Positions 2,548 through 17,798 of a stretch of DNA of 64,000 bases are shown here, piece after piece. Origin of the DNA: an uncultured Bacteriovoracaceae bacterium. Its GTDB lineage: Bacteria; Bdellovibrionota; UBA1018; UBA923. Positions within the stretch are counted from its first letter, which is position 1. The number at the start of each line of letters is the position of its first letter. A program made the position numbers and the translations under genes. The stretch lies in contig CAZNGN010000008.1 of assembly GCA_964572865.1 (NCBI GenBank), positions 31,561 through 95,560 of the forward strand, written 5' to 3'. The notes under the pieces are model-generated. The model ran no database searches. It was not told where the DNA came from and was given only the letters and a program-made list of their open reading frames with translations.

Positions 2548-3426
2548 TTATTTTAAAGAACTTAAAAACATCCAGATTGCATCAATCTCAGTTTGGTTTA
2601 ATTGTTTTAGTAAATTTACAGGCATCGGAGCTCTTAATGGTTGCCCGGAATAAATTGAAACTCCAGATTGAATCATTTTTTGAAAGTTTTCTTTTGTCCA
2701 ACGTGAGTCTGCCCCCAAACGAATATTAGCAGCAGGCGGCCAAGAAGGATCTCCTCCCGGAATTGGGCCCCCTTTATATTCAGAGCCATGGCACCCAATG
2801 CAGGCGTTTGCTAAATATTTACCAAATTCAATTGTCGCGGCTTCGGTAGGTTTTGTTCCAAACCCTTTTGAATGATCAATGAAATGCGCAGGAAACACTA
2901 CTGGCATTTTATCTAATGCACTTAGAATTTTTAACATCGGACCATATGTATTCTGATGACTTTCTTGTGCAATTTCAGGAGTACTACGTAAAAAAGCAAT
3001 CAATGCAGATAGATCATCTGTACTCATGCCTTCAAAATCAAAAGAAGGCATAAATCGCAATGAACGCCCTGATTGATGTACTCCATAACGAACTGCTCGT
3101 ACAATATCTTCATCACTAAGGTGTTTTGTACGAAAGGGAGTAATGTTTACGCCATATAAACTGCCCATAGCACCGTTTTCCATTATTTTTACGCCAGTCA
3201 AATTTTGACCATGGCATTCAACGCAACCATTGCGAACATAATAAATGCGTTTACCAAGTTCTATATTTGGATTTTGTTTCCAATTGATTTTAGATAGTTC
3301 TTCATGCATTGGAAATTTTTCTTCTAGTTTAGAATTAAACTTACTAAATTGAATTCCAATAAAAATACTTGCTACTACGACTAGAGTTGCTAATAAAAAT
3401 CCAATATATTTGAAAAATTTCTTCAT
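2548..3426 (-). CDS. Membrane-anchored diheme c-type cytochrome
   Basis: N-terminal transmembrane helix. Two CxxCH haem-binding motifs (CVECH and CIGCH). Confidence 0.75.
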   Translation of the reverse strand: MKKFFKYIGFLLATLVVVASIFIGIQFSKFNSKLEEKFPMHEELSKINWKQNPNIELGKRIYYVRNGCVECHGQNLTGVKIMENGAMGSLYGVNITPFRTKHLSDEDIVRAVRYGVHQSGRSLRFMPSFDFEGMSTDDLSALIAFLRSTPEIAQESHQNTYGPMLKILSALDKMPVVFPAHFIDHSKGFGTKPTEAATIEFGKYLANACIGCHGSEYKGGPIPGGDPSWPPAANIRLGADSRWTKENFQKMIQSGVSIYSGQPLRAPMPVNLLKQLNQTEIDAIWMFLSSLK

Positions 3427-3504: not shown

Positions 3505-4785
3505 ATGAAATACTTTATTTTTATTTTAATATTTATTTCTCATTCTGTTTTTGCTCAATGCAAAAAGCAAACGACTAAAATTGAAAAATTAGAAAGTTTT
3601 GCAAATTTAAATTTAAATTATGGATGTCTAGGAGCCTATGTTGCAAATGAATTAAAAGAATATCATCCCGATCGAAATATTAATGGTGAAAAATTAGCAG
3701 AAAATGTAGCAGCGTGGGCACAAGAAAATACTAAAAAAGAGAATTGGTTTACAGATATTAGAGATTCTTTTAAATCAAGAATGAAAGCGGGTGCAACTCT
3801 TCTGCCGCGTTTATGGAATGGTTCACTTATTTCATATGATCAAGATCAAAATGATATTCAAAAATTAAGAAAATGGCTTTTGAGCACAAAAGATTTATCT
3901 GTAACCCCTGATCAGCTGATTAAACATGCATTAGCAATTTCTGAAGGAAACATCGAGCGTGCGATTACAATGTGTTATAATCACTTTTTAGTTGAAGGTG
4001 CTGTGGGTGTAAACGCAATTGAACGTGACACTCGTTGGTATGTAATGAAAATGACTGACATCACTGGAGAGAGAGAAGTTTTTGATGATATTGGCCACAA
4101 AGTGAATGGGCAGTATAAAAAATTCGGAAGAGGAGATTTGTATTCAGCATATTATCATTTTTTTGCAACCGCATTGCATTCGTATATTCGTGAAGAAAGT
4201 TCTGTCAGCTTAAGATTGCCAACATCAACTTATTCTTGGCTTGAGGAGTCTCAGTGGAATAAATCGATGGAGGATAAATTAAAACGTAAACAAATTGATG
4301 AAGAAGGAGCTGAGTTTGGAAAAAACTTAGCTGAACTATTAAAAAAAGATGAGAAAGTAAAAGTAAATGGAAAATACATAGAAGACAGACCCGATCTTTA
4401 TGGTGAAAAGTGGGCTTTGAAAGAAGGACAACATCCAAGAGATTTTAATACAGACAATAAAACTTATAATTATCCTACTGCTTTAGAAGAAGTCACAATT
4501 CTTAAGAAACTAATGCAAAATGAAAAATACTATAAAAAATATTTTAATTGTTACGCAGATCATTTAAGAGGTAGCGATAATCAGTACATCATTTTATCTG
4601 TCGTAGAAACTTTGTCACAAGATCGTGATTTGAAAACTGGAAAAATTAAAAAAGATTCCTATGATCTTTTAAAGAAAATGAGTCAAAAGGGCTACAGTGT
4701 TGTGAAGAAGATGGCCCAATGTGTTCTAACTGAAAAAACATTAGAAGAGTGTGAAAAAGCAAATCGCCCAACCAATCTTGAATAA
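3505..4785 (+). CDS. Secreted hypothetical protein, 426 aa
   Basis: Clear signal peptide (MKYFIFILIFISHSVFA) and a long ORF. Divergent from the cytochrome gene. No family recognised. Confidence 0.5.
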   Translation: MKYFIFILIFISHSVFAQCKKQTTKIEKLESFANLNLNYGCLGAYVANELKEYHPDRNINGEKLAENVAAWAQENTKKENWFTDIRDSFKSRMKAGATLLPRLWNGSLISYDQDQNDIQKLRKWLLSTKDLSVTPDQLIKHALAISEGNIERAITMCYNHFLVEGAVGVNAIERDTRWYVMKMTDITGEREVFDDIGHKVNGQYKKFGRGDLYSAYYHFFATALHSYIREESSVSLRLPTSTYSWLEESQWNKSMEDKLKRKQIDEEGAEFGKNLAELLKKDEKVKVNGKYIEDRPDLYGEKWALKEGQHPRDFNTDNKTYNYPTALEEVTILKKLMQNEKYYKKYFNCYADHLRGSDNQYIILSVVETLSQDRDLKTGKIKKDSYDLLKKMSQKGYSVVKKMAQCVLTEKTLEECEKANRPTNLE

Positions 4786-4870: not shown

Positions 4871-5857
4871 ATGTTTTTAAAAGATTCTTTTCAAAGAAAA
4901 TTTTCATATTTAAGACTTTCAGTTACAGAAAAATGTAATTTTAAATGTGAGTATTGTTTGCCGAATGGGTTTCAAGAATTTGCCTCAAACTATGATGAAA
5001 ATGAATTAACAATCAATGAAATAAAAAATTTAGTTACAGCATTTGCAAGTCTTGGTGTCACGAAAGTTCGACTCACTGGAGGAGAGCCAACCGTGAGACG
5101 AGATATTGTTGAAATTGTAGATGTTGTTTCGAGAATTAATGGAATTGAAGATATTGCATTAACGACAAATGGATTTAAATTGCCACAGTTAGCGCTATCT
5201 CTTCGCACTGCTGGATTGAATAAGTTAAATATTAGTTTAGATAGTTTAAATAAAAACAAATTTAATAAAATCGTCGGTGGCGACAAATTTGAATCTGTTA
5301 TGATGGGAATTGAGACTGCACTCAGTTTAAAATTTAATAGCATAAAATTAAATGCAGTTTTAACTGCAGAAACAACTGAAGATGAAGTTCAGTTGTTTTT
5401 AAATTATATTAAAAATAAACCGATTAGTGTGCGTTTCATCGAATTAATGAAAACAGAAAAAAATTCAGAATTTTTTAAAAAAAATCACATCAACGCTGGC
5501 GCTTTAAAATTATTTCTTCAAAAAAATGACTGGAAAATAATGAATAAAAAATCAACAGATGGACCTGCAATCGTTTATAGACATAATGACTACGAAGGTT
5601 CGATTGGAATTATTGCTCCATATACAGAAGGTTTTTGTGAAGACTGTAATCGTTTGAGGGTAACTTCAGTGGGCGGTTTAAGGCTTTGCTTATTTGGAGA
5701 AAATGACTATCAATTGCGAGATTTATTACAAAATGAAAATCACAGTAATGATTTAATAAATCGCATTCAATCTGCAGTACTAGAAAAACCAGAAAGTCAT
5801 TTTTTAAAATATGGAATTGTAGGAAAAAATACACATTTTGCTCAAATTGGAGGCTAA
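4871..5857 (+). CDS. moaA: GTP 3',8-cyclase MoaA, a radical-SAM enzyme
   Basis: N-terminal YLRLSVTEKCNFKCEYC radical-SAM CxxxCxxC cluster. The size and C-terminal Cys motif are typical of MoaA. Confidence 0.85.
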   Translation: MFLKDSFQRKFSYLRLSVTEKCNFKCEYCLPNGFQEFASNYDENELTINEIKNLVTAFASLGVTKVRLTGGEPTVRRDIVEIVDVVSRINGIEDIALTTNGFKLPQLALSLRTAGLNKLNISLDSLNKNKFNKIVGGDKFESVMMGIETALSLKFNSIKLNAVLTAETTEDEVQLFLNYIKNKPISVRFIELMKTEKNSEFFKKNHINAGALKLFLQKNDWKIMNKKSTDGPAIVYRHNDYEGSIGIIAPYTEGFCEDCNRLRVTSVGGLRLCLFGENDYQLRDLLQNENHSNDLINRIQSAVLEKPESHFLKYGIVGKNTHFAQIGG

Positions 5858-5858
5858 C

Positions 5859-6860
5859 GTGAATCAAGAAAATGCAAATTATAAAATGATAGATATCGAT
5901 CACAAAGTGGATACGCACCGAAAAGCAGTAGCATCTGGTTATTTTTATGCCTCACACGAAACAATTAAAAAAATAATAAATAAAGAAATCCCAAAAGGCG
6001 ATGTACTTTCTTTGGCTGAAATTGCAGGCATACAAGGTGCTAAACTAACATCTCAAGTTTTGCCACTTTGTCATCCTTTGCAATTAACATCAGTCAGAGT
6101 ATGGACAGAATGTTTGGCTGATACCATCCAAGTATTTTGTGAAGCAAAAACGATATCAAAAACGGGTGTTGAGATGGAAGCATTATGTGGAGTGAACGCA
6201 GCACTACTTTGTATTTATGATTTAGTTAAAAGTGTTGATCCAGTTTTAGAAATAAAAAATATTAAGTTACATTCAAAGGAAGGCGGAAAAACCGGACATT
6301 GGATGAATCCAACAATCGAACAAAAGTCGATTGAACAGCCATCCGAGAAAAGTGCTTCTAGTGAGTTTACAAACTTACATTTTTCAGTAATCACAATGAG
6401 CGATCGAGCATATCAAGAAAAATATGAAGATCATTCTGGAGCAGAAATCGTAAGTTGGGTTCAAAAAAATAACGGAAAACTCATTCAAAAAATAATTCTT
6501 CCCGACGAAAAAGATAAGTTAATGTCTGAAATTAAAAAGTTAATTGCAGAAAAAAGTACAAATTGCATTTTAATTTCTGGGGGCACTGGTTTATCAAAAC
6601 GAGACATTACGCCTGAAGCAGTTTCTCAATTAGTAAAAGAATGTGGTGGAAAAGAAATTTGCGGTATTGGTGAATTGTTAAGAAATGAAGGAATTGCAAA
6701 AACAAAATTTGCAGTGCTCAGTCGTTCTTCGGGATATTTAATTGAAAATACTTTAATCATTACTTTGCCTGGAAGTGTAAAGGCAGTGTTAGAAAGTTTA
6801 CCTGTGATTCATGATTTAATTCCTCATATGATTCATACTGCTCGAGGTGGTTCACATTGA
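5859..6860 (+). CDS. moaC: Fusion of cyclic pyranopterin monophosphate synthase MoaC with a MogA/MoaB-type molybdopterin adenylyltransferase domain
   Basis: The N-terminal about 150 aa is MoaC-like (LTSQVLPLCHPL...EALCGVNAALLCIYD). The C-terminal about 170 aa is MogA/MoaB-like (ILISGGTGLSKRDITPEA). A GTG at 5859 lies 5 nt after GGAGG (5849-5853), so the likely start is GTG 5859 rather than the ORF-track ATG at 5838. Confidence 0.75.
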   Translation: MNQENANYKMIDIDHKVDTHRKAVASGYFYASHETIKKIINKEIPKGDVLSLAEIAGIQGAKLTSQVLPLCHPLQLTSVRVWTECLADTIQVFCEAKTISKTGVEMEALCGVNAALLCIYDLVKSVDPVLEIKNIKLHSKEGGKTGHWMNPTIEQKSIEQPSEKSASSEFTNLHFSVITMSDRAYQEKYEDHSGAEIVSWVQKNNGKLIQKIILPDEKDKLMSEIKKLIAEKSTNCILISGGTGLSKRDITPEAVSQLVKECGGKEICGIGELLRNEGIAKTKFAVLSRSSGYLIENTLIITLPGSVKAVLESLPVIHDLIPHMIHTARGGSH

Positions 6861-7939
6861 GATTTAAAATTAATAATTTAAACAATTTCTTTGGAGCATT
6901 TGCAGATATTGCGATTATGCTGCCGATTATATCGCTTTTATCTGTTCACTCAGGGTTTTCAGCCCCCACATTATTTTTAACAAGTGGTATGCTATATGTT
7001 TTCAGTTCATTGTACTATAGAGTTCCCATTTCAATTCAGCCATTAAAATCAATAGCGATTTCTTCGTTAACGTTAGGAGCAAGTTTTTATGATGTGCGAA
7101 TGGCGGGTTTTTTATTGGGATTTATTTTTGTATCTCTTTGGATTCTGAAAATTGATAAATATTTAAATAAAATTCCAGATTCGATTGTACATCAAATTCA
7201 AGTGGGGTTAGGTACACTTTTATTAATTCAAGCATACCGAAGCGATTCTAATGCGATTATATATTTAATCAGCGCAGTCGTTGCTTTTGTACCATTCTTA
7301 TCAAAAATTCCTGTGTTAGGAATTGTAGCAGTCATCGGATTATTATTTGGATTATTTTATCCAAGTTCAAGTAAAGAATTATCAATCAATTCAAATTTAC
7401 ATTGGAACATAATTATATCTCTTTTATTGCCTCAGATTATATTAACTCTTTCAAATTCAGTTGTAGCAACACAAAGAGTATGCAAAACGTATTTTAAAAG
7501 CGAAGCTAAAAATGTAAAAATGAATCGACTCATCTTTAGTATTGGATTTGGAAATATAATTTCATCAATGTTAGCTGGGTTACCGTTTTGTCATGGTTCA
7601 GGTGGGGTAACTGCTCATGCCAAAGGAGGGTCACGTAACTTTATATCAACTATAGTGACTGGTGCATTTTATATAATTTTCGGCATTATATTGTTTAATT
7701 TTAAAAATTTAACTTTTCAGTTACATCCAGTATTTATTTCATTTTTACTTGCAACGACTGGCTTTTATCATATGCAATTAGCAAAAAATACAATTTTACA
7801 AAAATTAGGAATTTTTAAAGTCATTACTTCAATTTTGATTACTGTAATTTCTTTAAATTTAATTTATGTTTTATTGTTTTCTATAATTTTAGAAATATTA
7901 GAAAATAAATATCTAAAATTGAAACGAGCATTCGTATGA
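6857..7939 (+). CDS. MOT1-family high-affinity molybdate transporter (sulfate-permease-like MFS_MOT1)
   Basis: Polytopic membrane protein carrying both MOT1 signature motifs: PISIQPLKSIAISS (consensus PxPVQPMKxIxAxA) at 7025-7066 and GLPFCHGSGGVTAHAKGGSRNF (consensus FGxMPxCHGxGGLAxQ..FGxRxG) at 7577-7642. TTG start at 6857 lies 6 nt after GAGGTGG and overlaps the upstream stop. An alternative internal ATG is at 6917. Confidence 0.7.
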   Translation: MRFKINNLNNFFGAFADIAIMLPIISLLSVHSGFSAPTLFLTSGMLYVFSSLYYRVPISIQPLKSIAISSLTLGASFYDVRMAGFLLGFIFVSLWILKIDKYLNKIPDSIVHQIQVGLGTLLLIQAYRSDSNAIIYLISAVVAFVPFLSKIPVLGIVAVIGLLFGLFYPSSSKELSINSNLHWNIIISLLLPQIILTLSNSVVATQRVCKTYFKSEAKNVKMNRLIFSIGFGNIISSMLAGLPFCHGSGGVTAHAKGGSRNFISTIVTGAFYIIFGIILFNFKNLTFQLHPVFISFLLATTGFYHMQLAKNTILQKLGIFKVITSILITVISLNLIYVLLFSIILEILENKYLKLKRAFV

Positions 7940-9207
7940 TTCGATATTCTGAAGCTTTGAATTGTATTTCTGAAATCGCATTAGAGTTAAGAGATCAAAA
8001 AGAGTTATATGAAGTTGTATCAATAAAGAATGCAACCGGTAGAGTTTCATTTAATGATGTATTTTCAACTGAAAACATTCCAAATGTTGATAATTCAGCG
8101 ATGGATGGATTTGCATTACGATCAGTAGATATACAAACTGCTTCAATTGAACATCCCATTGAGTTAAAAGTGGTAGGATCAATTGCTGCAGGAGATTTGA
8201 ATGCATGGAAAGAACATAATGATTTAACAGAAAATACATCCGTTGAAATTATGACTGGGGCACCTATCCCTTTAAATGGTGCAGACTGCGTAGTAAAAAT
8301 AGAAGATGTTAAATGTATTCATAACCAACAAGGCAAAATCATTTCGATTGTCATAAGTAAACCACTACATAAGTATGAAAATATACGACGCTTTGGTTCG
8401 GATCTGTCAATTGGAGATAAACTTCTTTCAAAAAATACGAAAATATCTTCAGAAAATATAATGGTTTTATCAAGTGTGGGGATTTCAGAAATTAAAGTTT
8501 ATAAAAAACTAAAAGTTGGAATTCTATCAACTGGATCTGAAATTGTAGATGCAGGAATTAAAAAAATAGAAAAAGCACAAGTTCGTAATTCTACGACAGC
8601 ATATATTCAGTCTATATGTGAAAAAATGATGTGTGATGTAGTTGTGTCGGAGCATGTTACTGACGATCCTGTACAATTTAGAAGTAAATTCGAAAAAATG
8701 TCATCAAATAGAATAGATGTTATTTTTACGACCGGTGCTGTATCGATGGGTAAGTATGATTTTATTCCAAATGTTTTAAGAGAATTAAATTCAGAAATTT
8801 ATTTTCATAAAGTTGCCATTAGGCCTGGTAAACCAATTATTTTCGCTAAAACAAATGATAATATAGTAGTCTTTGGTTTGCCCGGAAATCCAGTTTCAAG
8901 TGCAATTGGTCTTCGATTTTTCTTTGAACCTTATTTGAGAAGTTATTTTCAGTTAGAAAAAGAAAGTATCTTTAAAGCAAAATTATTAAAACCTACAAAT
9001 AAAATGTTAGGCCTAAGAACCTTTTTAAAAGCAAATATTAAAAATGACTGCAGTCAAATTTATATTGAACCACAAGACGGACAGTCATCTCATATTGCAA
9101 AATCATTACAGAATTCAAATGCATGGATCATTGCCGATGAAGAATTGCAAGATTTACAGACAAATCAAATAGTGAACTTTGTGCCAATTGATTCAGAGCT
9201 AATGTGA
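7936..9207 (+). CDS. moeA: Molybdopterin molybdenumtransferase MoeA
   Basis: NSAMDGFALR and GLPGNPVS motifs. About 420 aa. ATGA overlap with the upstream gene. Confidence 0.85.
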   Translation: MIRYSEALNCISEIALELRDQKELYEVVSIKNATGRVSFNDVFSTENIPNVDNSAMDGFALRSVDIQTASIEHPIELKVVGSIAAGDLNAWKEHNDLTENTSVEIMTGAPIPLNGADCVVKIEDVKCIHNQQGKIISIVISKPLHKYENIRRFGSDLSIGDKLLSKNTKISSENIMVLSSVGISEIKVYKKLKVGILSTGSEIVDAGIKKIEKAQVRNSTTAYIQSICEKMMCDVVVSEHVTDDPVQFRSKFEKMSSNRIDVIFTTGAVSMGKYDFIPNVLRELNSEIYFHKVAIRPGKPIIFAKTNDNIVVFGLPGNPVSSAIGLRFFFEPYLRSYFQLEKESIFKAKLLKPTNKMLGLRTFLKANIKNDCSQIYIEPQDGQSSHIAKSLQNSNAWIIADEELQDLQTNQIVNFVPIDSELM

Positions 9208-9214
9208 GGAAAAT

Positions 9215-9490
9215 ATGATTAAAATTGAATTAAAAATGTTTGGAACGTTTCGAAAATATGAAAACAATCAGATGATATCACAGGTTCATTCGCTAAACGC
9301 TATATCGATACAAGAAATTAAAAAACAAATATCTTTGAAACTTGAATCTATTCAAAAAAATGATTCAATCCTTGTTTTTGACTCAGCGTTTGCGAATGCT
9401 CATTCACATAAACCAATTATTTTGACTGATGAAACGATTATTTCAGAATCTTGCTCATTAGCCATTTTACCTCCTGTGTGTGGCGGTTAA
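9215..9490 (+). CDS. moaD: Molybdopterin synthase sulfur-carrier subunit MoaD
   Basis: 91 aa ending in Gly-Gly (…PPVCGG). GAGGAAAA RBS. Operon context. Confidence 0.75.
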   Translation: MIKIELKMFGTFRKYENNQMISQVHSLNAISIQEIKKQISLKLESIQKNDSILVFDSAFANAHSHKPIILTDETIISESCSLAILPPVCGG

Positions 9491-9961
9491 ATGAAACAAA
9501 ACATTAAATGTTCAATTACAAATAATAAAATTAATATAATGAATGCAATTCAATTTGTGCAGTCATCTGAGTTGGGCGCGCAGAATATTTTCATTGGAAC
9601 GGTTCGATCTCCAAATCACAATCAAGAAGTTGTTTCGGTTCATTACGATGTATTTGAACCAATGGCATTAAATACTTTTAATGAAATAGCGAATGAAGTG
9701 CTAGCAAAGTTAAGCATGAGCCTTAAAATATATATTGAACATCGAGTAGGTATTTGTCCGACCGGTGAAGAAAGTATTGTAATTGCCGTAGGATCAAAAC
9801 ATCGCGAAGATTCTTACAAAGCTTCTAGATACATTATTGAAGAAATTAAAAAACGTTCACCGATTTGGAAAAAAGAAATTTATTCTACTGGAGAGAGTGA
9901 GTGGCTACAGGGGCATTCTCTTTGCCAATATTCAAATGGTGTTGAGCATTCACTGTATTAG
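9491..9961 (+). CDS. moaE: Molybdopterin synthase catalytic subunit MoaE
   Basis: 156 aa with a MoaE-like core (FIGTVR...HRVG...VIAVGSKHREDSYKASRYIIEEIKKRSPIWKKE). TAAATG overlap with moaD. Confidence 0.8.
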   Translation: MKQNIKCSITNNKINIMNAIQFVQSSELGAQNIFIGTVRSPNHNQEVVSVHYDVFEPMALNTFNEIANEVLAKLSMSLKIYIEHRVGICPTGEESIVIAVGSKHREDSYKASRYIIEEIKKRSPIWKKEIYSTGESEWLQGHSLCQYSNGVEHSLY

Positions 9962-10700
9962 TACATGTTTTACAATTGGAATTTTTTAGAATTTCAAAAG
10001 TATGTATTTTAGGCATTTCTGAAAAATCTAAATGAATGAATTTAGATTTAGTAACATTTAGTGGATTTGCTAAATATAAAATACTTTCGGTCGCTTGTAT
10101 GCCAGCAACAATTCCGGCAAATGAGCCTAACACACCAGCGCTTTCACAAGTTTGAATTCGTGCTTTTGGTTTTTGAGGATATACACATCGAAAACAAGGA
10201 CCATTATGTAAATTAAAAATTCCAACATGACCTTCAAATTGATCAATGGATCCATAAATAAATGGTTTCGAATAATTAAAACTAAAATCATTAATTAGTA
10301 ATTTAGTTTCAAAGTCATCGCATGCATCAATGATGATGTCATATTGTGCAAATAAATCATCCGCTATTTCGGAAGTTAATTGATAAGGATATGCAATTAC
10401 ATTTGTATTTGAATTAAATTTCTTTAAATTGTGTTGAGCTGCTAACGCTTTGTTTGTTCCTACATTCTCTTCAGAAAACAAAATCTGTCTGTGTAAATTG
10501 GATAAGCTTACCGTATCATAATCAATAACACCGATTGTTCCGATTCCTGCAGAAGCAAGATACATTGAAATGGGATTTCCTAATCCTCCCATTCCAACTA
10601 TGAGTGCTTTTGAATTGAGTAAGTTAGTTTGGCCGTTCGGCCCAATTTGGTTTAAACTAATCTGTCTTTGAAAGCGGATTGGATCAAACATTTTTGCCAA
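9885..10700 (-). CDS. moeB: Molybdopterin-synthase adenylyltransferase of the MoeB/ThiF E1-like family
   Basis: IVGMGGLGNPISMYLASAGIGTIGVIDYDTVSLSNLHRQ Rossmann/ThiF motif. C-terminal CxxC...CxxC zinc site. Its 3' end overlaps the convergent moaE by 77 nt. Confidence 0.8.
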   Translation of the reverse strand: MAKMFDPIRFQRQISLNQIGPNGQTNLLNSKALIVGMGGLGNPISMYLASAGIGTIGVIDYDTVSLSNLHRQILFSEENVGTNKALAAQHNLKKFNSNTNVIAYPYQLTSEIADDLFAQYDIIIDACDDFETKLLINDFSFNYSKPFIYGSIDQFEGHVGIFNLHNGPCFRCVYPQKPKARIQTCESAGVLGSFAGIVAGIQATESILYLANPLNVTKSKFIHLDFSEMPKIHTFEILKNSNCKTCTNTVNAQHHLNIGKENAPVATHSLQ

Positions 10701-12246
10701 TAGCTTTTTCTAAAATTCGTTCGCTGATTAAGAAGCCAACTCCGAGAGCAGTACCTAATCCGAAGAACATCATAAAGAAACTATAGTTCGACATGGTTGA
10801 GTAAAAGCCGCCCAAATATCCTGCCAAGTAGTTGCCGATGAATGAAGACAAGAACCACATTCCCATCATCATTGCGAGCATTCGAGCAGGTGCTACTTTT
10901 GTAACAAAGGATAAGCCAATCGGAGACAAATAAAGTTCTCCCATTGTGAATATAAATGTTGTTACAGTTAACCACATCATATTGATTAAAGATTTATCTG
11001 CGGTTACTTGAGAAGATCCCCACGCTAAAAATAAAAAGGCAGCGCCGGCTAAAAATGAACCAATCGCCATTTTGCGTACAGAAGAAGATTTCTTACCTTT
11101 TCGTGCACGAACTGCCCAAATGGTATCTAAGATCGGTGCAAATACGAAAATAAAAAATGGATTGAACGATTGATAGGTTTCAGCGCGTCCGCCTAAAATG
11201 GTCCAATCAGCTTTTTCATCTGCCCATAGTTGTAATGTATTTCCTTGTTGTTCAAAGATTGCCCAAAAGAAAATAGTCAAAGCACACAATACTACGAGAG
11301 CAGTTACTTTGCTGCGTTCAGTGTGATCTTTGAGTTTTGAAATGGTAAATGCAATCGAAGCAATGATTGCAACAATTGCGATCATTTTAATTGTCATTGG
11401 TAATGCTAAGAATACAAAAAAGCCAATCATTACTGCAAAAAATCCACCAGTGGTTTTTAAAGTAATTTGTTTTCGTTCTTGTTCTGGAGCAAGCTCTGAA
11501 GATTCAGGCGGCAAATGTTTGCGGCCCATGTGGTAAATGATTACGCCTAAAAGCATGCCGATACCAGCGAGGGTAAATCCAACGTGCCACGTAGCTTGTG
11601 GTTCGTTGTGTCCCATTCCTTTTGCAATCCATTCAGCAACGGTTGCACATAAGATTGGAGAGAAGAATGCACCTAAATTAATTCCCATATAAAATAATGT
11701 GAATGCACCGTCTCTGCGATCGTCGCCTTCAGGATATAAATTTCCAACTTGTGTAGATATGTTTGGTTTGAAAGCACCATTTCCTAAAATTAAGAAAAAT
11801 AATGCTAATAAGAATGAAGCTTCAAATGCCATCAAGAAGTGACCGATGGCCATTAAGATTGCACCGATGTAGACGGTTTTCTTTTTTCCAAAAACATGGT
11901 CGGCTAAAATTCCACCAAAGAATGGTGATAGATAAATAAAGCCTGTGTATAATCCATAAATTTCTGATGAGAAGGGTTGAATGTCGAGGGCTTTACCAGA
12001 ACTGCCTTCGATTATTTTACGTAAAACATCCATGCCGATTACACTTTGAAATCGGGCAGGATCACTCAATAAATATTTAGTCATGTATAATACGAGTAAT
12101 GCGCGCATTCCGTAGTAAGACATGCGTTCCCACATTTCTGTAAAAAATAAATAGAACAACCCTTTCGGATGAATAGTGCTCGATTTTTTGAGCATTACGA
12201 TGAGATAAACGAGAACTACTAAAACGATGATTGTGCCGATAGACAT
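10684..12246 (-). CDS. POT/PTR2-family proton-dependent di/tripeptide transporter
   Basis: MWERMSYYGMRALLVLYM PTR2 signature. About 12 predicted transmembrane helices. 520 aa. Confidence 0.8.
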   Translation of the reverse strand: MSIGTIIVLVVLVYLIVMLKKSSTIHPKGLFYLFFTEMWERMSYYGMRALLVLYMTKYLLSDPARFQSVIGMDVLRKIIEGSSGKALDIQPFSSEIYGLYTGFIYLSPFFGGILADHVFGKKKTVYIGAILMAIGHFLMAFEASFLLALFFLILGNGAFKPNISTQVGNLYPEGDDRRDGAFTLFYMGINLGAFFSPILCATVAEWIAKGMGHNEPQATWHVGFTLAGIGMLLGVIIYHMGRKHLPPESSELAPEQERKQITLKTTGGFFAVMIGFFVFLALPMTIKMIAIVAIIASIAFTISKLKDHTERSKVTALVVLCALTIFFWAIFEQQGNTLQLWADEKADWTILGGRAETYQSFNPFFIFVFAPILDTIWAVRARKGKKSSSVRKMAIGSFLAGAAFLFLAWGSSQVTADKSLINMMWLTVTTFIFTMGELYLSPIGLSFVTKVAPARMLAMMMGMWFLSSFIGNYLAGYLGGFYSTMSNYSFFMMFFGLGTALGVGFLISERILEKAIGKNV

Positions 12247-12726: not shown

Positions 12727-15675
12727 ATGAAAATAAGGGTTCTATTATTTATTTTAGTTTTAGTCTCAGTTATCGGATTATCGTTCGATGCAATTGCAAC
12801 TCCATACTACGAGTTTGATACAACAAATTTTTATCCTGGCGATATTGGTGAAGATTCACAACCGACGATTAGTATAAGTGGTTGCCCATCTTATGGTGTC
12901 ACATTTGGAATCTATGATGATTCAAGTTGCACTAATTTAGCATTTGTTCCTAGTGCTCCGATTATGTGTATTGCACCACCAGATCCGTTCTTAGTTACAA
13001 CTACGAAAACATTAACAACAACCGGAATTTATAATTATTATATAAAATTTAATGGAGCTTGCGATATAAATTCAACTCATTACTTAAATAATTCTGCACC
13101 ACTTAAATATTATTATTTAAATCCGACTATGGAATTAGATCCGGTACAAACTCCAAACTATACTGATACTACTCCCACAATTTTAATTCATTCGGCGCTT
13201 CCTAATTCAATCTTAGAATTATTTAAAGATTCAAGCTGTAGCCAAAGCGTAAGCTCAACTGCTAATGCAAGCTCTACTGGTGAAGCTTCTATTACAACAA
13301 ATCATATTTTAACTGCATTGAATTTTTACTTAAAAGTGAAACGAAATTTAACTGATGATGGATATTGCATTCAAAATCATGTTTTATTTTATCCATTAAA
13401 TTCAGCTCTTGTTACAATGTCTAGAATTAATCCAACAGGTAGTAGATCAAATACAGTATTAAATCCTAAATTTAGAATTTCTAACATAAACACAATGGCA
13501 GGTCAGGTCATTAAATTAAAAGCTAAAAATACTAGTACAAATATTATTTCAACATCAGCAAATCATACAATTACTTCTATAGAGGCAAATGATGGATATG
13601 TTGATATCACATTTTCGCCTTCGCTAACTTGTTCGGCTTCCGTTTGTATTTTTAGTATTTATCCTAACATAAATGCTAACGATCATTACTATGTAGCTCT
13701 TGATTATATTTATGATATTGCAACGCCTTCGATTAATTCATTAACGTATACGATCAATGGTCAATTGAATTCACAATATAATACAAACAATGGAAATGTG
13801 ACAATATCTCTAAATCAAATTTGGCAAGATGATGTTTATACATTTTATTTTTATGCTAACAATAATTGTTCAGGCACCGAGAGTTCAATCGCAATATCAA
13901 ACTTTCAATCTAGTATCACAACGAATATTGATTTAGCTTTTGATGGAACTTATCAATTTTCTTATAAAGCAAAAGATTCAGCTGGTAACAATTCTTCACC
14001 AACATGTAGAATATTTACTAATCCAATCATTGCTGGATCAAACATAAACATGACAATAGATCGAGTCAGTCCTAATATCAGTAATATTAATATACAAAAA
14101 TCTGTAAACGGAGTTCTTCAAAATGCAAATGGACTTTGGTCTGATACAGTTAGTATTACTGCTAATTCAACTGATAATTCATATATTTTAAGTACTGCAA
14201 CAAAACTTAATATGAATAGAACTTATAATAATGTGGTATATAATGCGCAATTTAATTTAAATTGTACAAATAATGCACAAAATACAAGTTCAAATTGTTC
14301 ACTATCTCTTGATACGTTAAATAATTCTCAGTTTTTAGATCAATTTAAGTATATTCCAAATCAATCATCTACGCCTATATTATTAAGCTCAAATGCTGGT
14401 GTAAATTCTAACGGAAGTTATAACTTTACATTGAGTACGCTTGATAATTTTGGCAATTCTTACACATCTGCATCCTATTCAGCAGTTATATCAAATGATT
14501 TTGTCTCTCCAGTTATCAGTTTTAACAGTCCGCCAGAAAATGCAACTTTAAATGGAAATCCAACTTGTATTTTGGCAACAGGAACAGCGTTCCCTGTACA
14601 GCTGCAGCTTTCAGATGATACAGGTGGAAACAAAACTATGTTCGTATTTATGAATGAAAATCAAGCATCATTGCCAAGTGCATTTTCAAATGCAAATTGT
14701 CCTATAAGTGGAAGTACTACATTGCAGGGTATATCTACTATAAATATATTTCAAAGCGGAAATGTAAGTAATGGATTGTTTTCAACAAGTTTGAATACGA
14801 TTAGTAAAGCAAATAATATTTATTACTTGCGAGCTGTCGCCTGCGATTCTGCCGGACATATGAGTGTAGCACATGATTCATGTTTGAAAATTGCAAATGC
14901 AGTGAATGATACTGCAATTCCAACTGGATTAGCATTTAATAGTACACCAACAACTGCAAGTGGAAATAATTTTATTTTAACTGCAAAAGTTTTTGATGAT
15001 GTTCAAATCGCAAAAGTAGAGTTGTATAAGAATGGAGCACTTTATATGGTTAGTAGTGTTCCGCAAGATTTTACTCCGAATGCAGGTGATCCATGGAAAT
15101 ATGATTTTAAAATTAATACGCTAACGTTACCAAATGGCAGTGCTACATTTGCATTGAGAGCGTGTGATACTTCGAATAATTGCACATCCTTGACTGCTTC
15201 GATCATAGTAACGATACAAAATGCTGATCTAATTTTGCAGGCAGAAAACTATACGCCCATTGCAGGTTTGGTGTTTCCAATTGCTACATCTGCAGCAACA
15301 GGAAGTCCGATTGTGATTTCATTTCCTGTAGGTACTTCAAAATTTAATTGGATCACATATACTGTACAGCCACGATTTGCAGCAAATAATGATTATTATG
15401 TTTACGTACGATTGAGAGCAAAAGATTCAAATTTACCAACAGGATTAAAAATAAGTTTAGACAACGGTTTAACCTTTACGAATATGTCATATCGAAAAAA
15501 TAATACGTTTAAATGGTGTCGTTATCAGGTGAACGCTACTACTGCTCGAAAATTTAAATTTGATCCAGCTAATCCTAAGTCAGTTCAATTTAAATTTAAT
15601 AATTCAAATCTTGAAGTAGATAAAATATCGATTCTTCCTGCCGATGCCACTTCAATCAACCTACAAAATCAGTAA
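12727..15675 (+). CDS. Large secreted Asn/Ser/Thr-rich surface protein, 982 aa, a probable adhesin with Ig-like beta domains
   Basis: Signal peptide MKIRVLLFILVLVSVIGLSFDAIA. 982 aa uninterrupted. Highly N/S/T-rich with many NxS/T sites. No enzymatic motif recognised. Confidence 0.6.
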   Translation: MKIRVLLFILVLVSVIGLSFDAIATPYYEFDTTNFYPGDIGEDSQPTISISGCPSYGVTFGIYDDSSCTNLAFVPSAPIMCIAPPDPFLVTTTKTLTTTGIYNYYIKFNGACDINSTHYLNNSAPLKYYYLNPTMELDPVQTPNYTDTTPTILIHSALPNSILELFKDSSCSQSVSSTANASSTGEASITTNHILTALNFYLKVKRNLTDDGYCIQNHVLFYPLNSALVTMSRINPTGSRSNTVLNPKFRISNINTMAGQVIKLKAKNTSTNIISTSANHTITSIEANDGYVDITFSPSLTCSASVCIFSIYPNINANDHYYVALDYIYDIATPSINSLTYTINGQLNSQYNTNNGNVTISLNQIWQDDVYTFYFYANNNCSGTESSIAISNFQSSITTNIDLAFDGTYQFSYKAKDSAGNNSSPTCRIFTNPIIAGSNINMTIDRVSPNISNINIQKSVNGVLQNANGLWSDTVSITANSTDNSYILSTATKLNMNRTYNNVVYNAQFNLNCTNNAQNTSSNCSLSLDTLNNSQFLDQFKYIPNQSSTPILLSSNAGVNSNGSYNFTLSTLDNFGNSYTSASYSAVISNDFVSPVISFNSPPENATLNGNPTCILATGTAFPVQLQLSDDTGGNKTMFVFMNENQASLPSAFSNANCPISGSTTLQGISTINIFQSGNVSNGLFSTSLNTISKANNIYYLRAVACDSAGHMSVAHDSCLKIANAVNDTAIPTGLAFNSTPTTASGNNFILTAKVFDDVQIAKVELYKNGALYMVSSVPQDFTPNAGDPWKYDFKINTLTLPNGSATFALRACDTSNNCTSLTASIIVTIQNADLILQAENYTPIAGLVFPIATSAATGSPIVISFPVGTSKFNWITYTVQPRFAANNDYYVYVRLRAKDSNLPTGLKISLDNGLTFTNMSYRKNNTFKWCRYQVNATTARKFKFDPANPKSVQFKFNNSNLEVDKISILPADATSINLQNQ

Positions 15676-16010: not shown

Positions 16011-16124
16011 GTATTTGTAACCACTAGGTTAATGGCTATTTCAAGGACGATTGACACGGAGTATTAATTCGTGATAGCTACTTAGTTGTCGTCGTCTCGT
16101 CAGTACATGAGAAGGGGAATGTGT

Positions 16125-17798
16125 ATGATGAGAGTTAAAAGTCTAATAATTATTTCTATTATTATTTTATCTTCTTTGGTTTTTACCGCATGTAAAAATC
16201 CATTTAGTAAGGAAGATTCTAGTTCGCAAAACTCTACAAATACTCCTGCACCAACTTTCACTGGAGTTGTAATTGGCATTGATCCTACGACCGATTTAAC
16301 GTTAGCTCCACAATTAATTAAAGATACAGTTCTTTGGGACTCTTCTGGAAAAGTAGTAACTGGCACAATGGAAGATCGTGGAACTTGGGATTTAACTTCT
16401 GCATTTTTAGGTGAAGGACACTATTCAGGTGTTTCAAATTTACCAAACTCAAATCAAGTTTGCACTGGTAATACGATTTTAGGTGTTACAGGAGCAGCTG
16501 TTTGCCAAAGTGGAACAGCAACCACGCTTGCTTCTACTTCTCAAATTTTATCGGGATTTCAAGCTTGGGATTCTACAGGCACGTTGATGACGGGAACAAT
16601 GACTTCTCAAGGAAGTTTAAATGCTTCTCTTAGTTTTCCGGGAGCTGGATATTATTCAGGCACTGTAACTAACTTACCGACAACTTCACAAGTTTGTAGT
16701 TCAGTGAATGTATTAGGAGTTACAGGAGCAGCTGTTTGTCAAAGCGGCTCGACTACTTCTCCTGCCGGTGTTGGAAATATTTTAAATGGCTTAGAAGCTT
16801 GGAGTGCGACAGGCAATAAGATTACAGGCACTATGCCAAATCGTGGTTCATTAGATGCGACTCAGAGTTTTCCGGGAAATGGGTATTACTCTGGAATTGT
16901 AACCAATTCTCCAACTGCAGCTACCATTTGTAGTGGAAATACAGTTTTAGGTATAGCAGGAACTGCAATTTGTGGAGCACCTGCAACTCCATATTCATCA
17001 AATGCAAATCGCGATAAAAACACTACTCAAATTACACAGCTTCAAGAAACTGTGACGTATGCTGGTACTAGTTTGCCAAATAATTATCGCGAAATGCCAT
17101 TTGTATCTAAAGATGATGATGGTTCATTTTCATCAAATGCTACTAAAGTTGTGCGAACAACTTTTGTGAATTGTGGATTAACACAAACTACGATTACAGC
17201 TCGAATCAGCGACTGCGCAACCTTAAATGGTGTCAATGCAACGTGGGATGGACAGGTCAAAGGAAATAATGGTTTTGGTGTATGGAAGCTTGTTACAAGA
17301 ACCGCAGCAAATATCGAAGTATGGCGTGATGAACGCACAGGTTTATTGTGGTCATCAAAAGTTGCAACATCAAAAAATTGGTGTAAAGCTTCTGGAAATA
17401 ATAATAGTTCAGTTGTAACAAACACAAATTTTAAAGAAAATGATCCCAATGGTACTTGTACGAATTCATCGAATCAAAATACAACCACAGCACCAATTTC
17501 ATATTGTTTAGAAAATGCACAATTTGATACTTCAAATGTAAATGCTGCAGGCAAAGCTGGATTAAAAGCAAGTTCAACACCAACTGTTCGTTGGAGGCTA
17601 CCTACTTTGAATGATTATTTGCAAGCACAAGTGGATGGTATTAATTTAGTGCTTCCTGATTTTAGTACTTCGTATGAATGGACGGCAACGATTAACTCAG
17701 CAAATACATCGCAAGCATGGATGTATAGACCTGCATCAACAATCATTGCAACCAATCCTAGATCAAATAATCGCGATGTTCGTTGTGTGGGAAGATAA
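16125..17798 (+). CDS. Lipoprotein with three tandem Cys-capped repeats of about 70 aa and a C-terminal DUF1566 (Lcl C-terminal, lectin-like) domain
   Basis: GAAGGGGAA RBS then ATG at 16125, chosen over the upstream in-frame ATG at 16086. Lipobox VFTAC. The repeats end in QVCxxNxxLGVTGAAVC. The C-terminal domain has VWRDERTGLLWS...VRWRLPTLNDYLQA...YEW, typical of DUF1566. Confidence 0.65.
   Translation: MMRVKSLIIISIIILSSLVFTACKNPFSKEDSSSQNSTNTPAPTFTGVVIGIDPTTDLTLAPQLIKDTVLWDSSGKVVTGTMEDRGTWDLTSAFLGEGHYSGVSNLPNSNQVCTGNTILGVTGAAVCQSGTATTLASTSQILSGFQAWDSTGTLMTGTMTSQGSLNASLSFPGAGYYSGTVTNLPTTSQVCSSVNVLGVTGAAVCQSGSTTSPAGVGNILNGLEAWSATGNKITGTMPNRGSLDATQSFPGNGYYSGIVTNSPTAATICSGNTVLGIAGTAICGAPATPYSSNANRDKNTTQITQLQETVTYAGTSLPNNYREMPFVSKDDDGSFSSNATKVVRTTFVNCGLTQTTITARISDCATLNGVNATWDGQVKGNNGFGVWKLVTRTAANIEVWRDERTGLLWSSKVATSKNWCKASGNNNSSVVTNTNFKENDPNGTCTNSSNQNTTTAPISYCLENAQFDTSNVNAAGKAGLKASSTPTVRWRLPTLNDYLQAQVDGINLVLPDFSTSYEWTATINSANTSQAWMYRPASTIIATNPRSNNRDVRCVGR
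16311..16973 (+). repeat. Three tandem in-frame repeats of about 70 aa (210-225 nt) in the DUF1566 lipoprotein
   Basis: Each unit reads (ILxGxxAW(D/S)xxGxxxTGTMxxRGSxxxxxSFPGxGYYSGxVTNxPTxxxxCxxxxxLGxxGxAxC). The three units align with each other. Confidence 0.6.

What the first reader, a model, noticed from the sequence alone, without database searches (positions are those of the whole stretch)
6857..7939. Eukaryote-type MOT1 molybdate permease embedded in the Moco biosynthesis operon
The polytopic protein encoded between the moaC-mog fusion and moeA carries both diagnostic MOT1 motifs (PxPVQPMKxIxAxA-like PISIQPLKSIAISS, and FGxMPxCHGxGGLAxQ-like GLPFCHGSGGVTAHAKGG). Bacteria normally import molybdate through the ModABC ABC system. 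A MOT1/sulfate-permease-like carrier that is translationally coupled, through overlapping stop and start codons, to moaA / moaC-mog / moeA / moaD / moaE would be a compact one-operon Moco pathway with its own molybdate supply. No molybdoenzyme gene is present in the window, so the consumer of the cofactor lies elsewhere.
Basis: partly seen in the sequence, partly recalled or inferred. Interest (0 to 1): 0.55.

Follow-up and report, generated by a model that had tools for sequence, protein, structure and literature searches.

The report
Bacterial MOT1-type molybdate permease in Moco operon
A membrane carrier related to the plant and algal molybdate transporter MOT1 sits inside a bacterial operon that makes the molybdenum cofactor, most likely bringing in the molybdate that the operon's enzymes insert; the arrangement is real and conserved in many bacteria, but the family is already annotated and no bacterial member has been tested.

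Summary
ORF 6857-7939 (+), 360 aa, scores 89 bits on Pfam PF16983 MFS_MOT1 (cut-off 30). It scores only 23.6 bits on the general sulfate-permease model and has no STAS domain. It carries bacterial versions of both MOT1 motifs. A confident AlphaFold model (pLDDT 90.7) has the 14-helix SLC26/SulP fold, and the motifs fall on the two strand-plus-half-helix elements where that fold binds substrate.

The gene overlaps moaC-moaB by 4 nt (TTGA) and moeA by 4 nt (ATGA). The window holds no modABC, molybdoenzyme or Moco riboswitch.

The "eukaryote-type" label misleads. A profile search finds 2409 clusters of relatives. A motif scan finds at least 295 bacterial species across many phyla. Of 80 loci examined, 63 carry Moco genes nearby and 26 have the same moaCB-MOT1-moeA order. 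Natural MOT1-MoeA and MOT1-MoaA fusion proteins exist.

Most likely function: a molybdate uptake permease feeding the MoeA insertase (inferred, untested).

Precedent exists. NCBI names relatives "putative sulfate/molybdate transporter", and a 2017 Caldithrix abyssi genome paper reported a PF16983 gene in a Moco locus. Yet molybdenum genomics papers from 2018 and 2026 still treat MOT1 as eukaryote-only. Verdict: a new member of a known kind, of moderate interest.

The parts
4871..5857 (+). moaA (GTP 3',8-cyclase), first gene of the operon
   Evidence: TIGR02666 at 332 bits; Pfam Radical_SAM + Mob_synth_C
5859..6860 (+). moaC-moaB/mog fusion (cPMP synthase + MPT adenylyltransferase-type domain). 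The mechanical ORF starts at TTG 5838. The likely start is GTG 5859, preceded by GGAGG at 5848-5852.
   Evidence: NF002947 bifunctional MoaC/MoaB at 321 bits; Pfam MoaC + MoCF_biosynth; sequence
6844..6860 (+). Coupling junction: Shine-Dalgarno-like GAGGTGG (6844-6850), then a TTG start overlapping the TGA stop of moaCB (TTGA, 6857-6860)
   Evidence: Sequence read directly. The same 4-nt overlap occurs in the closest relative, L089.
6857..7939 (+). MOT1-family (PF16983) 14-TM permease, 360 aa, no STAS domain: the predicted molybdate importer
   Evidence: Pfam MFS_MOT1 at 89.1 bits in 2 repeats; AF2 model pLDDT 90.7; Foldseek top hits are SLC26Dg, BicA, SLC26A11 and UraA
7025..7066 (+). MOT1 motif 1, PISIQPLKSIAISS (residues 57-70): short strand 60-62 plus half-helix 64-73, i.e. 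TM3 of the 7+7 fold
   Evidence: Invariant P57, Q61, P62, L63, K64, S65; DSSP of the model; plant counterpart GIPMPVQPMKAIAAVAIS
7430..7462 (+). Third conserved block, PQIILTLSNSV (residues 192-202), on the long helix TM8
   Evidence: Invariant P192, Q193, L196, T197, N200, S201, V202; helix 183-219
7571..7642 (+). MOT1 motif 2, LAGLPFCHGSGGVTAHAKGGSRNF (residues 239-262): short strand 244-246 plus half-helix 248-256, i.e. TM10
   Evidence: Invariant G241, C245, H246, G247, G249, G250, T252, A253, H254, G258; DSSP; plant counterpart MPxCHGAGGLAGQYKFGGRSG
7936..7939 (+). ATGA: the moeA start codon overlaps the MOT1 stop codon
   Evidence: Sequence. The same 4-nt overlap occurs in 17 of 36 related loci with moeA next downstream on the same strand, and other overlaps in 11 more.
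7936..9207 (+). moeA (molybdopterin molybdotransferase, the Mo insertase)
   Evidence: Pfam MoeA_N + MoCF_biosynth + MoeA_C; NF007960 at 282 bits
9215..9490 (+). moaD (MPT synthase small subunit, C-terminal GG)
   Evidence: Weak ThiS/TIGR01682 hits; the protein ends in ...VCGG; conserved position in the synteny
9491..9961 (+). moaE (MPT synthase large subunit)
   Evidence: Pfam MoaE at 102 bits
9885..10700 (-). moeB/thiF-type adenylyltransferase, convergent; its 3' end overlaps moaE by 77 nt
   Evidence: Pfam ThiF at 242 bits; NF006444 MoeB; same layout in L089

Best explanation
The gene encodes a bacterial member of the MOT1 branch of the SulP/SLC26 superfamily. It is a 14-helix (7+7 inverted repeat) secondary carrier without a STAS domain, and it most likely imports molybdate across the inner membrane for the cofactor pathway encoded around it.

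Shown here:
- Family membership.
- The fold.
- The two MOT1 motifs fall on the strand-plus-half-helix elements TM3 and TM10.
- Stop/start overlaps with moaC-moaB upstream and moeA downstream.
- Linkage to Moco genes is conserved across phyla.
- MOT1-MoeA and MOT1-MoaA fusion proteins exist.

Inferred:
- In SLC26, UraA and SLC4 carriers, TM3 and TM10 form the central substrate site. I infer that the oxyanion binds there, helped by the invariant K64, C245/H246 and H254 and the TM8 block PQxxLTxxNS.
- The carrier is made stoichiometrically with the MPT adenylyltransferase-type domain and the MoeA insertase. Molybdate therefore arrives where MPT-AMP is converted to Mo-MPT, possibly by direct docking of MoeA on the cytoplasmic C-terminus.
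- It replaces or supplements ModABC in this organism.

Unknown: the energy coupling (proton or sodium symport, or facilitated diffusion) and the Mo versus W selectivity.
For: 1. Family. PF16983 at 89.1 bits against a cut-off of 30, in two repeats. PF00916 is only marginal and there is no STAS.
2. Fold. The AF2 model has pLDDT 90.7 and pTM 0.88 with 14 helices. Foldseek top hits are the SLC26Dg TM domain (E 4e-9, TM 0.66), BicA, SLC26A11, AtSULTR4;1 and UraA. Motif 1 is strand 60-62 plus helix 64-73. Motif 2 is strand 244-246 plus helix 248-256.
3. Conservation. 46 columns are invariant, concentrated in the two motifs and in TM8.
4. Synteny. Of 80 species-level loci, 63 have at least one Moco gene in the flanks, 51 have one within 300 nt, 49 have it on the same strand, and 26 show the order moaCB-MOT1-moeA. 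Linkage survives rearrangement into other orders in Alpha- and Gammaproteobacteria, Elusimicrobia, Nitrospira, Gemmatimonadota and Anaerolineales.
5. Coupling. MOT1-moeA stop/start overlaps occur in 28 of the 36 loci that have moeA next downstream on the same strand.
6. Fusions. P0132 (805 aa) is MOT1 plus full-length MoeA, found in Bdellovibrionota FG-2 and in a Logan read-set assembly. P0174, P0198, P0191 and L074 are MOT1 plus MoaA, found in several samples.
7. Regulator and neighbours. ModE-like genes lie directly upstream of MOT1 in L058 and L070. In the 17 loci without Moco genes, the commonest flanking families are FmdE, Molybdopterin oxidoreductase, Molydop_binding and MobB.
8. No modABC/modE in the window.
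9. Characterised plant, algal and fungal MOT1 proteins are high-affinity, molybdate-specific carriers, and Arabidopsis MOT1.2 interacts with the insertase Cnx1 (PMC10780190, PMC9147641).
Against: - No transport assay exists for any bacterial member in the literature I could search.
- Identity to plant MOT1 fragments is only about 30% over the motif regions. The bacterial motifs differ at positions that could affect selectivity: QPLK against QPMK, and GGVTAH against GGLAGQ.
- Full-length eukaryotic MOT1 sequences could not be retrieved, so there is no phylogeny.
- The rest of the genome was not available, so ModABC may exist elsewhere and the carrier may be redundant.
- In Elusimicrobia, MOT1 sits beside ModB/ModC-like genes, so it does not always replace an ABC system.
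- No Moco riboswitch or recognisable Mo-responsive element lies upstream here.
Confidence: 0.8

Rival explanations
1. It is a general oxyanion or sulfate permease of the SulP type that happens to lie in the operon. Any molybdate entry would be adventitious, as with sulfate systems or the PerO-type oxyanion permease.
For: A marginal PF00916 Sulfate_transp hit of 23.6 bits. The fold is shared with sulfate transporters such as AtSULTR4;1, SLC26A11 and SiSulT. JGI and NCBI names for relatives read "sulfate permease, SulP family" or "putative sulfate/molybdate transporter".
Against: The MOT1 model scores far higher (89 against 24 bits). There is no STAS domain, and the SulP PxYGLY signature is absent from the sequence (motif as cited in PMC5840216). 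Linkage is specifically to Moco genes, Mo enzymes, ModE and MobB, across phyla and through gene-order changes, and includes fusions to MoeA and MoaA. No sulfate-assimilation family appears among the most frequent flanking families listed.
Confidence: 0.07
2. It is primarily a tungstate (or dual Mo/W) importer serving a tungsten-cofactor pathway.
For: The Moco and Wco biosynthesis genes are the same. FmdE, often linked with W/Mo formylmethanofuran or formate dehydrogenases, is the most frequent neighbour in loci without Moco genes, mostly Anaerolineales. Sequence alone cannot separate MoO4 from WO4 selectivity.
Against: All characterised family members are molybdate transporters (PMC10780190). 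The window carries haem-c proteins, and its closest relatives are Oligoflexia and Bdellovibrionota. That these lineages are aerobic and that tungstoenzymes are uncommon in them rests on general knowledge and was not tested here. No AOR-type tungstoenzyme gene was seen in the window or in the flanks examined.
Confidence: 0.06
3. It is not an importer. It is an exporter or homeostasis valve for excess molybdate, a carrier for a pathway intermediate, or mainly a membrane anchor for the Moco biosynthetic complex.
For: Arabidopsis MOT1.2 moves molybdate out of a storage compartment, the vacuole, into the cytosol, which shows the family is not confined to uptake at the cell surface (PMC10780190). 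Fusion to MoeA or MoaA would also fit a scaffolding role.
Against: Vacuole-to-cytosol transport is still delivery to the cytosol. The transport-site motifs are strictly conserved, which argues for real transport. An exporter gene translationally coupled to the enzyme that consumes molybdate would be counter-productive. The window shows no other uptake system that would need balancing.
Confidence: 0.05

Closest known systems
Eukaryotic MOT1 molybdate transporters (Chlamydomonas CrMOT1, Arabidopsis MOT1.1/MOT1.2, Neurospora MOT-1; Pfam PF16983, a SulP-related branch)
   Same: Same Pfam family, well above threshold. No STAS domain. Two signature motifs at equivalent positions with shared cores, QP(M/L)K and P-x-CHG-x-GG. 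A functional tie to Mo insertion: plant MOT1.2 binds Cnx1 (PMC10780190), and here the gene lies between the genes for the bacterial counterparts of the Cnx1 G and E domains.
   Different: The host is bacterial and the gene sits inside an operon. Identity to plant fragments is about 30% in the motif regions. The bacterial consensus is VQPLKS and CHGSGG(V/L/I)TAH, against PVQPMK and CHGAGGLAGQYKFGGRSG in plants. No transport data exist.
Cabys_2008 of Caldithrix abyssi and the SulP-like TOL2_16610 / HRM2_13280 of sulfate reducers (bacterial PF16983 proteins predicted as molybdate transporters)
   Same: Bacterial PF16983 proteins. Cabys_2008 lies in a Moco biosynthesis locus with MoaA, MoaC, MoeA and a MOSC protein (PMC5317091). 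The sulfate-reducer homologues were predicted to be molybdate transporters (PMC5840216).
   Different: Caldithrix has a Moco riboswitch upstream, while none is detected here. Here the gene sits exactly between moaC-moaB and moeA with overlapping codons. That layout is shared mainly by Oligoflexia, Bdellovibrionota and Myxococcota.
ModABC (and WtpABC/TupABC) ABC-type molybdate/tungstate importers
   Same: The same presumed physiological job: molybdate supply for Moco. Frequent genomic linkage to Moco genes and to ModE.
   Different: Unrelated architecture. ModABC is a periplasmic binding protein plus a permease plus an ATPase, while this is a single secondary carrier. No ModA/B/C homologue is in the window. 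ModABC is present in 3269 of 3683 Mo-using bacteria (PMC6147048), whereas MOT1-type genes were found in at least 295 of 185,579 species genomes.
SLC26/SulP anion transporters (SLC26Dg, BicA, SULTR, SLC26A family)
   Same: The 7+7 inverted-repeat fold with strand-plus-half-helix TM3 and TM10; these are the best structural matches.
   Different: No cytoplasmic STAS domain. Only about 10-16% identity. The PF00916 score is marginal. The conserved motifs are different.

Membership tests
MOT1 molybdate transporter family (Pfam PF16983 MFS_MOT1) | Scores above the curated Pfam gathering threshold, with the two internal repeats | tested here: met
   89.1 bits against a cut-off of 30, E 3.1e-25, 2 stretches. 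All 120 listed homologues carry PF16983.
MOT1 molybdate transporter family (Pfam PF16983 MFS_MOT1) | Motif 1, PxPVQPMKxIxAxA (consensus as quoted in the finding; plant example GIPMPVQPMKAIAAVAIS in P0125) | tested here: met
   Window residues 57-70, PISIQPLKSIAISS. Of 10 specified positions, 5 are identical (P, Q, P, K, I), 3 are conservative (V>I, M>L, A>S) and 2 differ. The core QP(L/M)K is invariant in 25 bacterial homologues.
MOT1 molybdate transporter family (Pfam PF16983 MFS_MOT1) | Motif 2, FGxMPxCHGxGGLAxQxxFGxRxG (plant examples in P0121-P0124) | tested here: met
   Window residues 239-262, LAGLPFCHGSGGVTAHAKGGSRNF. The core P-x-CHG-x-GG, G258 and R260 match. The tail differs (VTAH against LAGQ; no FG). 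C245, H246, G247, G249 and G250 are invariant.
MOT1 molybdate transporter family (Pfam PF16983 MFS_MOT1) | Lacks the STAS domain and the sulfate-transporter signature of SulP/SULTR proteins | tested here: met
   The 360-aa protein ends right after TM14. There is no STAS Pfam hit and no PxYGLY string in the translation.
MOT1 molybdate transporter family (Pfam PF16983 MFS_MOT1) | High-affinity, sulfate-insensitive molybdate transport | not testable with these tools
   Only genomic-context support is available: synteny, fusions, and ModE, MobB and Mo-enzyme neighbours.
SulP/SLC26 superfamily (7+7 inverted-repeat anion carriers) | 14-TM fold with two strand-plus-half-helix elements (TM3 and TM10) | tested here: met
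   AF2 secondary structure. Foldseek hits to 5iof, 5da0, 6ki1, 9ias and 7lhv with probability 1.00 and TM 0.61-0.67.
SulP/SLC26 superfamily (7+7 inverted-repeat anion carriers) | C-terminal cytoplasmic STAS domain (canonical SulP/SLC26 members) | tested here: not met
   No STAS hit, and the length is too short. It is therefore a relative of canonical SulP, not a member.
ModABC-type ABC molybdate transporter | ModA-like periplasmic binding protein, ModB permease and ModC ATPase | tested here: not met
   No tblastn hit of E. coli ModA/B/C/E in the window at E<=1e-3. No SBP_bac_11 or ABC_tran family appears in the window scans.

The most novel reading that the evidence does not exclude
Bacterial MOT1-type carriers form a physical transporter-insertase unit. 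The cytoplasmic C-terminus docks MoeA, and in some lineages is covalently fused to MoeA or MoaA, so that molybdate passes directly from the membrane to MPT-AMP without a free cytosolic pool. On this reading the operon-embedded bacterial carrier is the ancestor of eukaryotic MOT1, whose interaction with Cnx1 is a relic of that arrangement. It is also the "missing" Mo uptake system in at least part of the roughly 7% of Mo-using bacteria reported to have no known transporter.
Probability: 0.3. Interest if true: 0.6.

Novelty: new member of a known kind. Interest (0 to 1): 0.38.

Why it matters
Molybdenum comparative-genomics papers still list MOT1 as restricted to eukaryotes (PMC6147048 from 2018; PMC13144720 from 2026). 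The 2018 survey also reports 278 Mo-using bacteria with no known transporter.

This window, together with the conserved synteny and the MOT1-MoeA and MOT1-MoaA fusions found here, gives a concrete and easily testable candidate for a second, non-ABC route of bacterial molybdate uptake. The route appears to be wired directly to the insertase.

If confirmed, it would correct surveys of Mo utilisation and supply a compact bacterial model, 360 aa with no STAS domain, for MOT1 structure and selectivity. It would also bear on the origin of the eukaryotic transporter. It is not a new kind of system. The family, its name and one operon example are already on record.

Tried and rejected
- A genome-contig scan with the single protein found no relative. 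The repeat with alignment A1 succeeded.
- The exact-sequence look-up of the window protein's contig is not on record. Cluster look-ups gave no names or accessions. The source genome could therefore not be examined for modABC or molybdoenzymes.
- Rfam found no Moco riboswitch or any other family in the window at gathering thresholds, and only chance-level hits upstream of moaA.
- The promoter and terminator scan of the operon was no better than shuffled sequence.
- PDB sequence search found no solved relative at E<=1. The afdb50 fold library was unavailable, so no structural match to Arabidopsis or Chlamydomonas MOT1 could be made.
- A synthetic motif query meant to fetch full-length eukaryotic MOT1 returned only 93-109 aa fragments. 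No bacteria-eukaryote phylogeny could be built, and recent transfer from a eukaryote cannot be ruled out by phylogeny. It is, however, unsupported: GC content is like the neighbouring genes and the bacterial family is deep and broad.
- The original MOT1 PNAS papers are not held. The motif consensus was instead checked against plant fragments.
- The supplementary tables of PMC6147048 were cut when stored and hold none of the taxa searched.
- NCBIfam has no model for this protein.
Full report
**1. The observation**

ORF 6857..7939 on the + strand (360 aa) exists as described. The window is uniformly AT-rich, with GC about 0.29-0.40. The gene's interval has GC 0.313, like its neighbours, so nothing in its composition suggests recent import.

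Pfam assigns the protein to PF16983 MFS_MOT1 at 89.1 bits (cut-off 30) in two stretches. The general sulfate-permease model PF00916 reaches only 23.6 bits against a cut-off of 23.2. NCBIfam has no model for it.

The surrounding genes are:
- moaA, 4871-5857
- a moaC-moaB/mog fusion, ending at 6860
- moeA, 7936-9207
- moaD, 9215-9490
- moaE, 9491-9961
- a convergent moeB/thiF, 9885-10700
- a POT-family peptide transporter

The TTG start at 6857 overlaps the TGA stop of moaCB (TTGA). It is preceded by GAGGTGG six nucleotides upstream. The stop codon overlaps the moeA ATG (ATGA). TTG 6857 is the only canonical start that keeps the invariant N-terminal G13 and D17 of the family.

The other junctions are tight but do not overlap:
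- moaA's TAA ends at 5857, and GTG 5859 follows a GGAGG.
- moeA and moaD are 7 nt apart.
- moaD and moaE abut.

**2. What the protein is**

The first search returned 192 homologues, of which the best 120 were listed, and every listed one carries PF16983. Identity is 49% for the closest and 31-42% for the rest. Where a source gives a name, it is "putative sulfate/molybdate transporter", "molybdate transporter family protein" or "sulfate permease, SulP family". The named sources are Oligoflexia, Bdellovibrionales and Pseudobdellovibrio MAGs.

In an alignment of 25 homologues, 46 columns are invariant. They fall in three blocks:
- P57, Q61-S65 (motif 1)
- P192, Q193, L196, T197, N200-V202
- G241, C245-G247, G249, G250, T252-H254, G258 (motif 2)

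An AlphaFold2 model built on that alignment is confident, with pLDDT 90.7 and pTM 0.88, and has 14 helices. Foldseek against the PDB matches the transmembrane domains of SLC26Dg (E 4e-9, TM 0.66), BicA, SLC26A11, AtSULTR4;1, SLC26A2/3/6, prestin and UraA. This is the 7+7 inverted-repeat fold.

Motif 1 is a short strand (60-62) followed by a short helix (64-73). Motif 2 is a strand (244-246) followed by a helix (248-256). These are the TM3 and TM10 elements. From the established architecture of the SLC26, UraA and SLC4 carriers, TM3 and TM10 cross in the middle of the membrane and form the substrate site. Placing the oxyanion there is my inference. I could not measure distances in the model.

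There is no STAS domain, and the SulP PxYGLY signature is absent. No solved structure of a sequence relative exists.

**3. Comparison with eukaryotic MOT1**

Full-length eukaryotic sequences could not be retrieved. A motif query returned only plant and eukaryote-like fragments. They show the plant motifs GIPMPVQPMKAIAAVAIS and (F)GAM(P/L)VCHGAGGLAGQYKFGGRSG.

The window protein aligns to them at 31% identity over 74 residues (E 8e-9) and at 28-29% over 38-54 residues. The shared cores are QP(L/M)K and P-x-CHG-x-GG. The bacterial family has its own consensus, VQPLKS and CHGSGG(V/L/I)TAH. It is therefore a genuine but divergent member.

**4. Distribution and genomic context**

A profile search of 1.84 billion cluster representatives finds 2409 relatives at E<=1e-3 and 440 at E<=1e-30.

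A scan of one genome per species with just two exact motif patterns confirms 295 relatives. The 80 kept come from Oligoflexia, Bdellovibrionota, Bacteriovoracaceae, Myxococcota, Alpha- and Gammaproteobacteria, Anaerolineales, Elusimicrobia, Nitrospira, Gemmatimonadota, Clostridia and others.

I ran tblastn with the window's Moco proteins against those 80 loci, each holding up to 8 kb of flank on either side:

| Measure | Loci (of 80) |
|---|---|
| At least one Moco gene in the flanks | 63 |
| Nearest Moco gene within 300 nt | 51 |
| Nearest Moco gene within 300 nt and on the same strand | 49 |
| Exact order moaCB-MOT1-moeA | 26 |

Other lineages keep the linkage in different orders. Examples are MOT1-moeA-moaA-moaCB-moaD-moaE, moaA-moaC-MOT1-moaD-moaE, and moaA-MOT1. 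That pattern is expected for a functional association, not an inherited accident.

The remaining 17 loci have no core Moco genes. I scanned 84 flanking ORFs from them, and the commonest families were FmdE (4), Molybdopterin oxidoreductase (3), Molydop_binding (3) and MobB (2).

ModE-like genes sit directly upstream of MOT1 in a Nitrospira locus (L058) and in one further MAG locus (L070). In Elusimicrobia, MOT1 lies beside ModB/ModC-like genes and moeA. The two transport types can therefore coexist.

Among the 36 loci with moeA next downstream on the same strand, 17 have the same 4-nt overlap as the window and 11 have other overlaps. The closest relative, P0002 at 49% identity (locus L089), matches the window's gene order, both 4-nt overlaps and the downstream neighbours.

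**5. Fusion proteins**

P0132 (805 aa) is MOT1 followed by a complete MoeA, with MoeA_N, MoCF_biosynth and MoeA_C. It is encoded in Bdellovibrionota bacterium FG-2 and in a Logan read-set assembly. There it sits between moaCB and moaD-moaE-mobA-moeB, next to a Tat-dependent DMSO-reductase-family enzyme.

P0174, P0198 and P0191 are MOT1 followed by MoaA. P0174 and P0198 each recur in several sequencing runs. P0198 sits downstream of a molybdopterin oxidoreductase operon. A Clostridia MAG (L074) has the same MOT1-MoaA open frame.

The C-terminus of SLC26-type carriers is cytoplasmic; that is where STAS sits. These fusions are therefore topologically sensible. This last point rests on established knowledge of the fold.

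**6. What is absent**

No Rfam family is found, including the Moco riboswitch. No ModA/B/C/E homologue is in the window. None of the 57 ORFs of at least 90 aa, nor the two end fragments, matches a molybdoenzyme family, MOSC or mobA.

Without mobA in the operon, the product encoded here is Mo-MPT. Whether bis-MGD enzymes exist elsewhere in the genome cannot be told.

**7. Mechanism**

Shown: family, fold, motif positions, coupling, synteny and fusions.

Inferred:
- The carrier imports molybdate.
- The binding site lies between TM3 and TM10 and includes K64, C245/H246, H254 and the TM8 polar block.
- Co-translation with MoaB/Mog-type and MoeA proteins delivers molybdate at the site of insertion, possibly through direct contact.

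Characterised plant, algal and fungal MOT1 proteins are high-affinity molybdate carriers, and Arabidopsis MOT1.2 interacts with the insertase Cnx1 (PMC10780190, PMC9147641). This makes the inference reasonable. The coupling ion and the Mo/W selectivity are unknown.

The rivals are a general sulfate or oxyanion permease, a tungstate importer, and an exporter or scaffold. Each is disfavoured by the specificity of the genomic associations but is not excluded by experiment.

**8. What is already known**

- A PF16983 gene inside a Moco locus, with a Moco riboswitch upstream, was reported for Caldithrix abyssi (PMC5317091).
- PF16983 homologues in sulfate reducers were predicted to be molybdate transporters (PMC5840216).
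- NCBI already names relatives accordingly.
- Against this, the main comparative-genomics papers search for MOT1 only in eukaryotes. They report no MOT1 in bacteria and 278 Mo-using bacteria without a known transporter (PMC6147048). A 2026 paper still describes MOT1 and MOT2 as restricted to eukaryotes (PMC13144720).
- I found no experimental study of a bacterial member.

**9. Verdict**

Two corrections apply. The family is widely bacterial and not "eukaryote-type". Only the two junctions flanking the transporter overlap.

It is a new member of a known, annotated but uncharacterised bacterial branch of the MOT1 family, in an arrangement that is typical for its lineage. Interest is moderate, at 0.38. 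The value lies in the strength of the comparative evidence, especially the fusions, and in an easy complementation experiment, not in any new principle.

Noticed in passing
L081 6001-8418 (= L011; Bdellovibrionota bacterium FG-2, JBBCAV010000118.1) and L082: An 805-aa natural fusion of the MOT1 carrier to a complete MoeA. It sits in a Moco operon that also has mobA and a rhodanese-MoeB. Upstream are a Tat-dependent molybdopterin oxidoreductase, a PBP_like_2 binding protein and a chemoreceptor (MCP).
   Followed up: partly
L084 6001-8043, L086 1296-3386, L074 about 7521-9545: MOT1-MoaA fusion proteins of 680-696 aa recur in several metagenome runs and in a Clostridia MAG. One lies directly downstream of a molybdopterin oxidoreductase / Fer4 / Nitrate_red_del operon, and another lies next to mobB.
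   Followed up: partly
L060, L064, L069, L076, L079 (Elusimicrobia), about 8001-10720: MOT1 is followed by ModB-like and ModC-like genes and then moeA-moaA-moaC. The carrier and an ABC system therefore coexist in one locus. No ModA-like gene was detected by tblastn.
   Followed up: no
L058 7694-7990 (Nitrospira) and L070 7679-7921: A ModE-like N-terminal (HTH) coding region lies directly upstream of the MOT1 gene, suggesting molybdate-responsive regulation in those lineages.
   Followed up: no
Flanks of MOT1 in L049-L080 loci without Moco genes (mostly Anaerolineales / Chloroflexota): FmdE-family proteins are the commonest neighbour, in 4 of 84 flanking ORFs. Next come molybdopterin oxidoreductase subunits and MobB.
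   Followed up: partly
window 9885-9961: moaE (+) and moeB (-) converge, and their 3' ends overlap by 77 nt. The same overlap (83 nt) occurs in the closest relative, L089, so it is probably real and not an ORF-calling artefact.
   Followed up: partly
window 5838-5886: The mechanical ORF for moaC-moaB starts at TTG 5838, overlapping moaA. GTG 5859 is preceded by GGAGG (5848-5852), one nt after the moaA stop. Family models align only from residue 17 (ATG 5886). The true start is therefore probably 5859 or 5886.
   Followed up: partly
window 2548-3426 (-) and 3505-4785 (+): Immediately upstream of the operon are a di-haem cytochrome c (292 aa, two Cytochrom_C domains) and a 426-aa protein with a signal-peptide-like N-terminus and no Pfam match. 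Any link to a molybdoenzyme electron chain is unknown.
   Followed up: no
window 12727-15675 (+) and 16086-17798 (+): Two large proteins (982 and 570 aa), rich in Ser/Thr/Asn, have only weak Ig-like (Big_7) or Lcl_C matches. Counterparts of 928 and 554 aa occupy the same positions in L089.
   Followed up: no
window 46116-49320 (-): A 448-aa protein with a cytochrome c554/c3-like multihaem domain sits in a cluster with a TPR protein, a DUF4398 protein and an OmpA-family protein. This is an unusual partner set.
   Followed up: no
window 1-64000: No Rfam family (tRNA, rRNA, riboswitch) reaches its gathering score anywhere in the 64 kb.
   Followed up: yes
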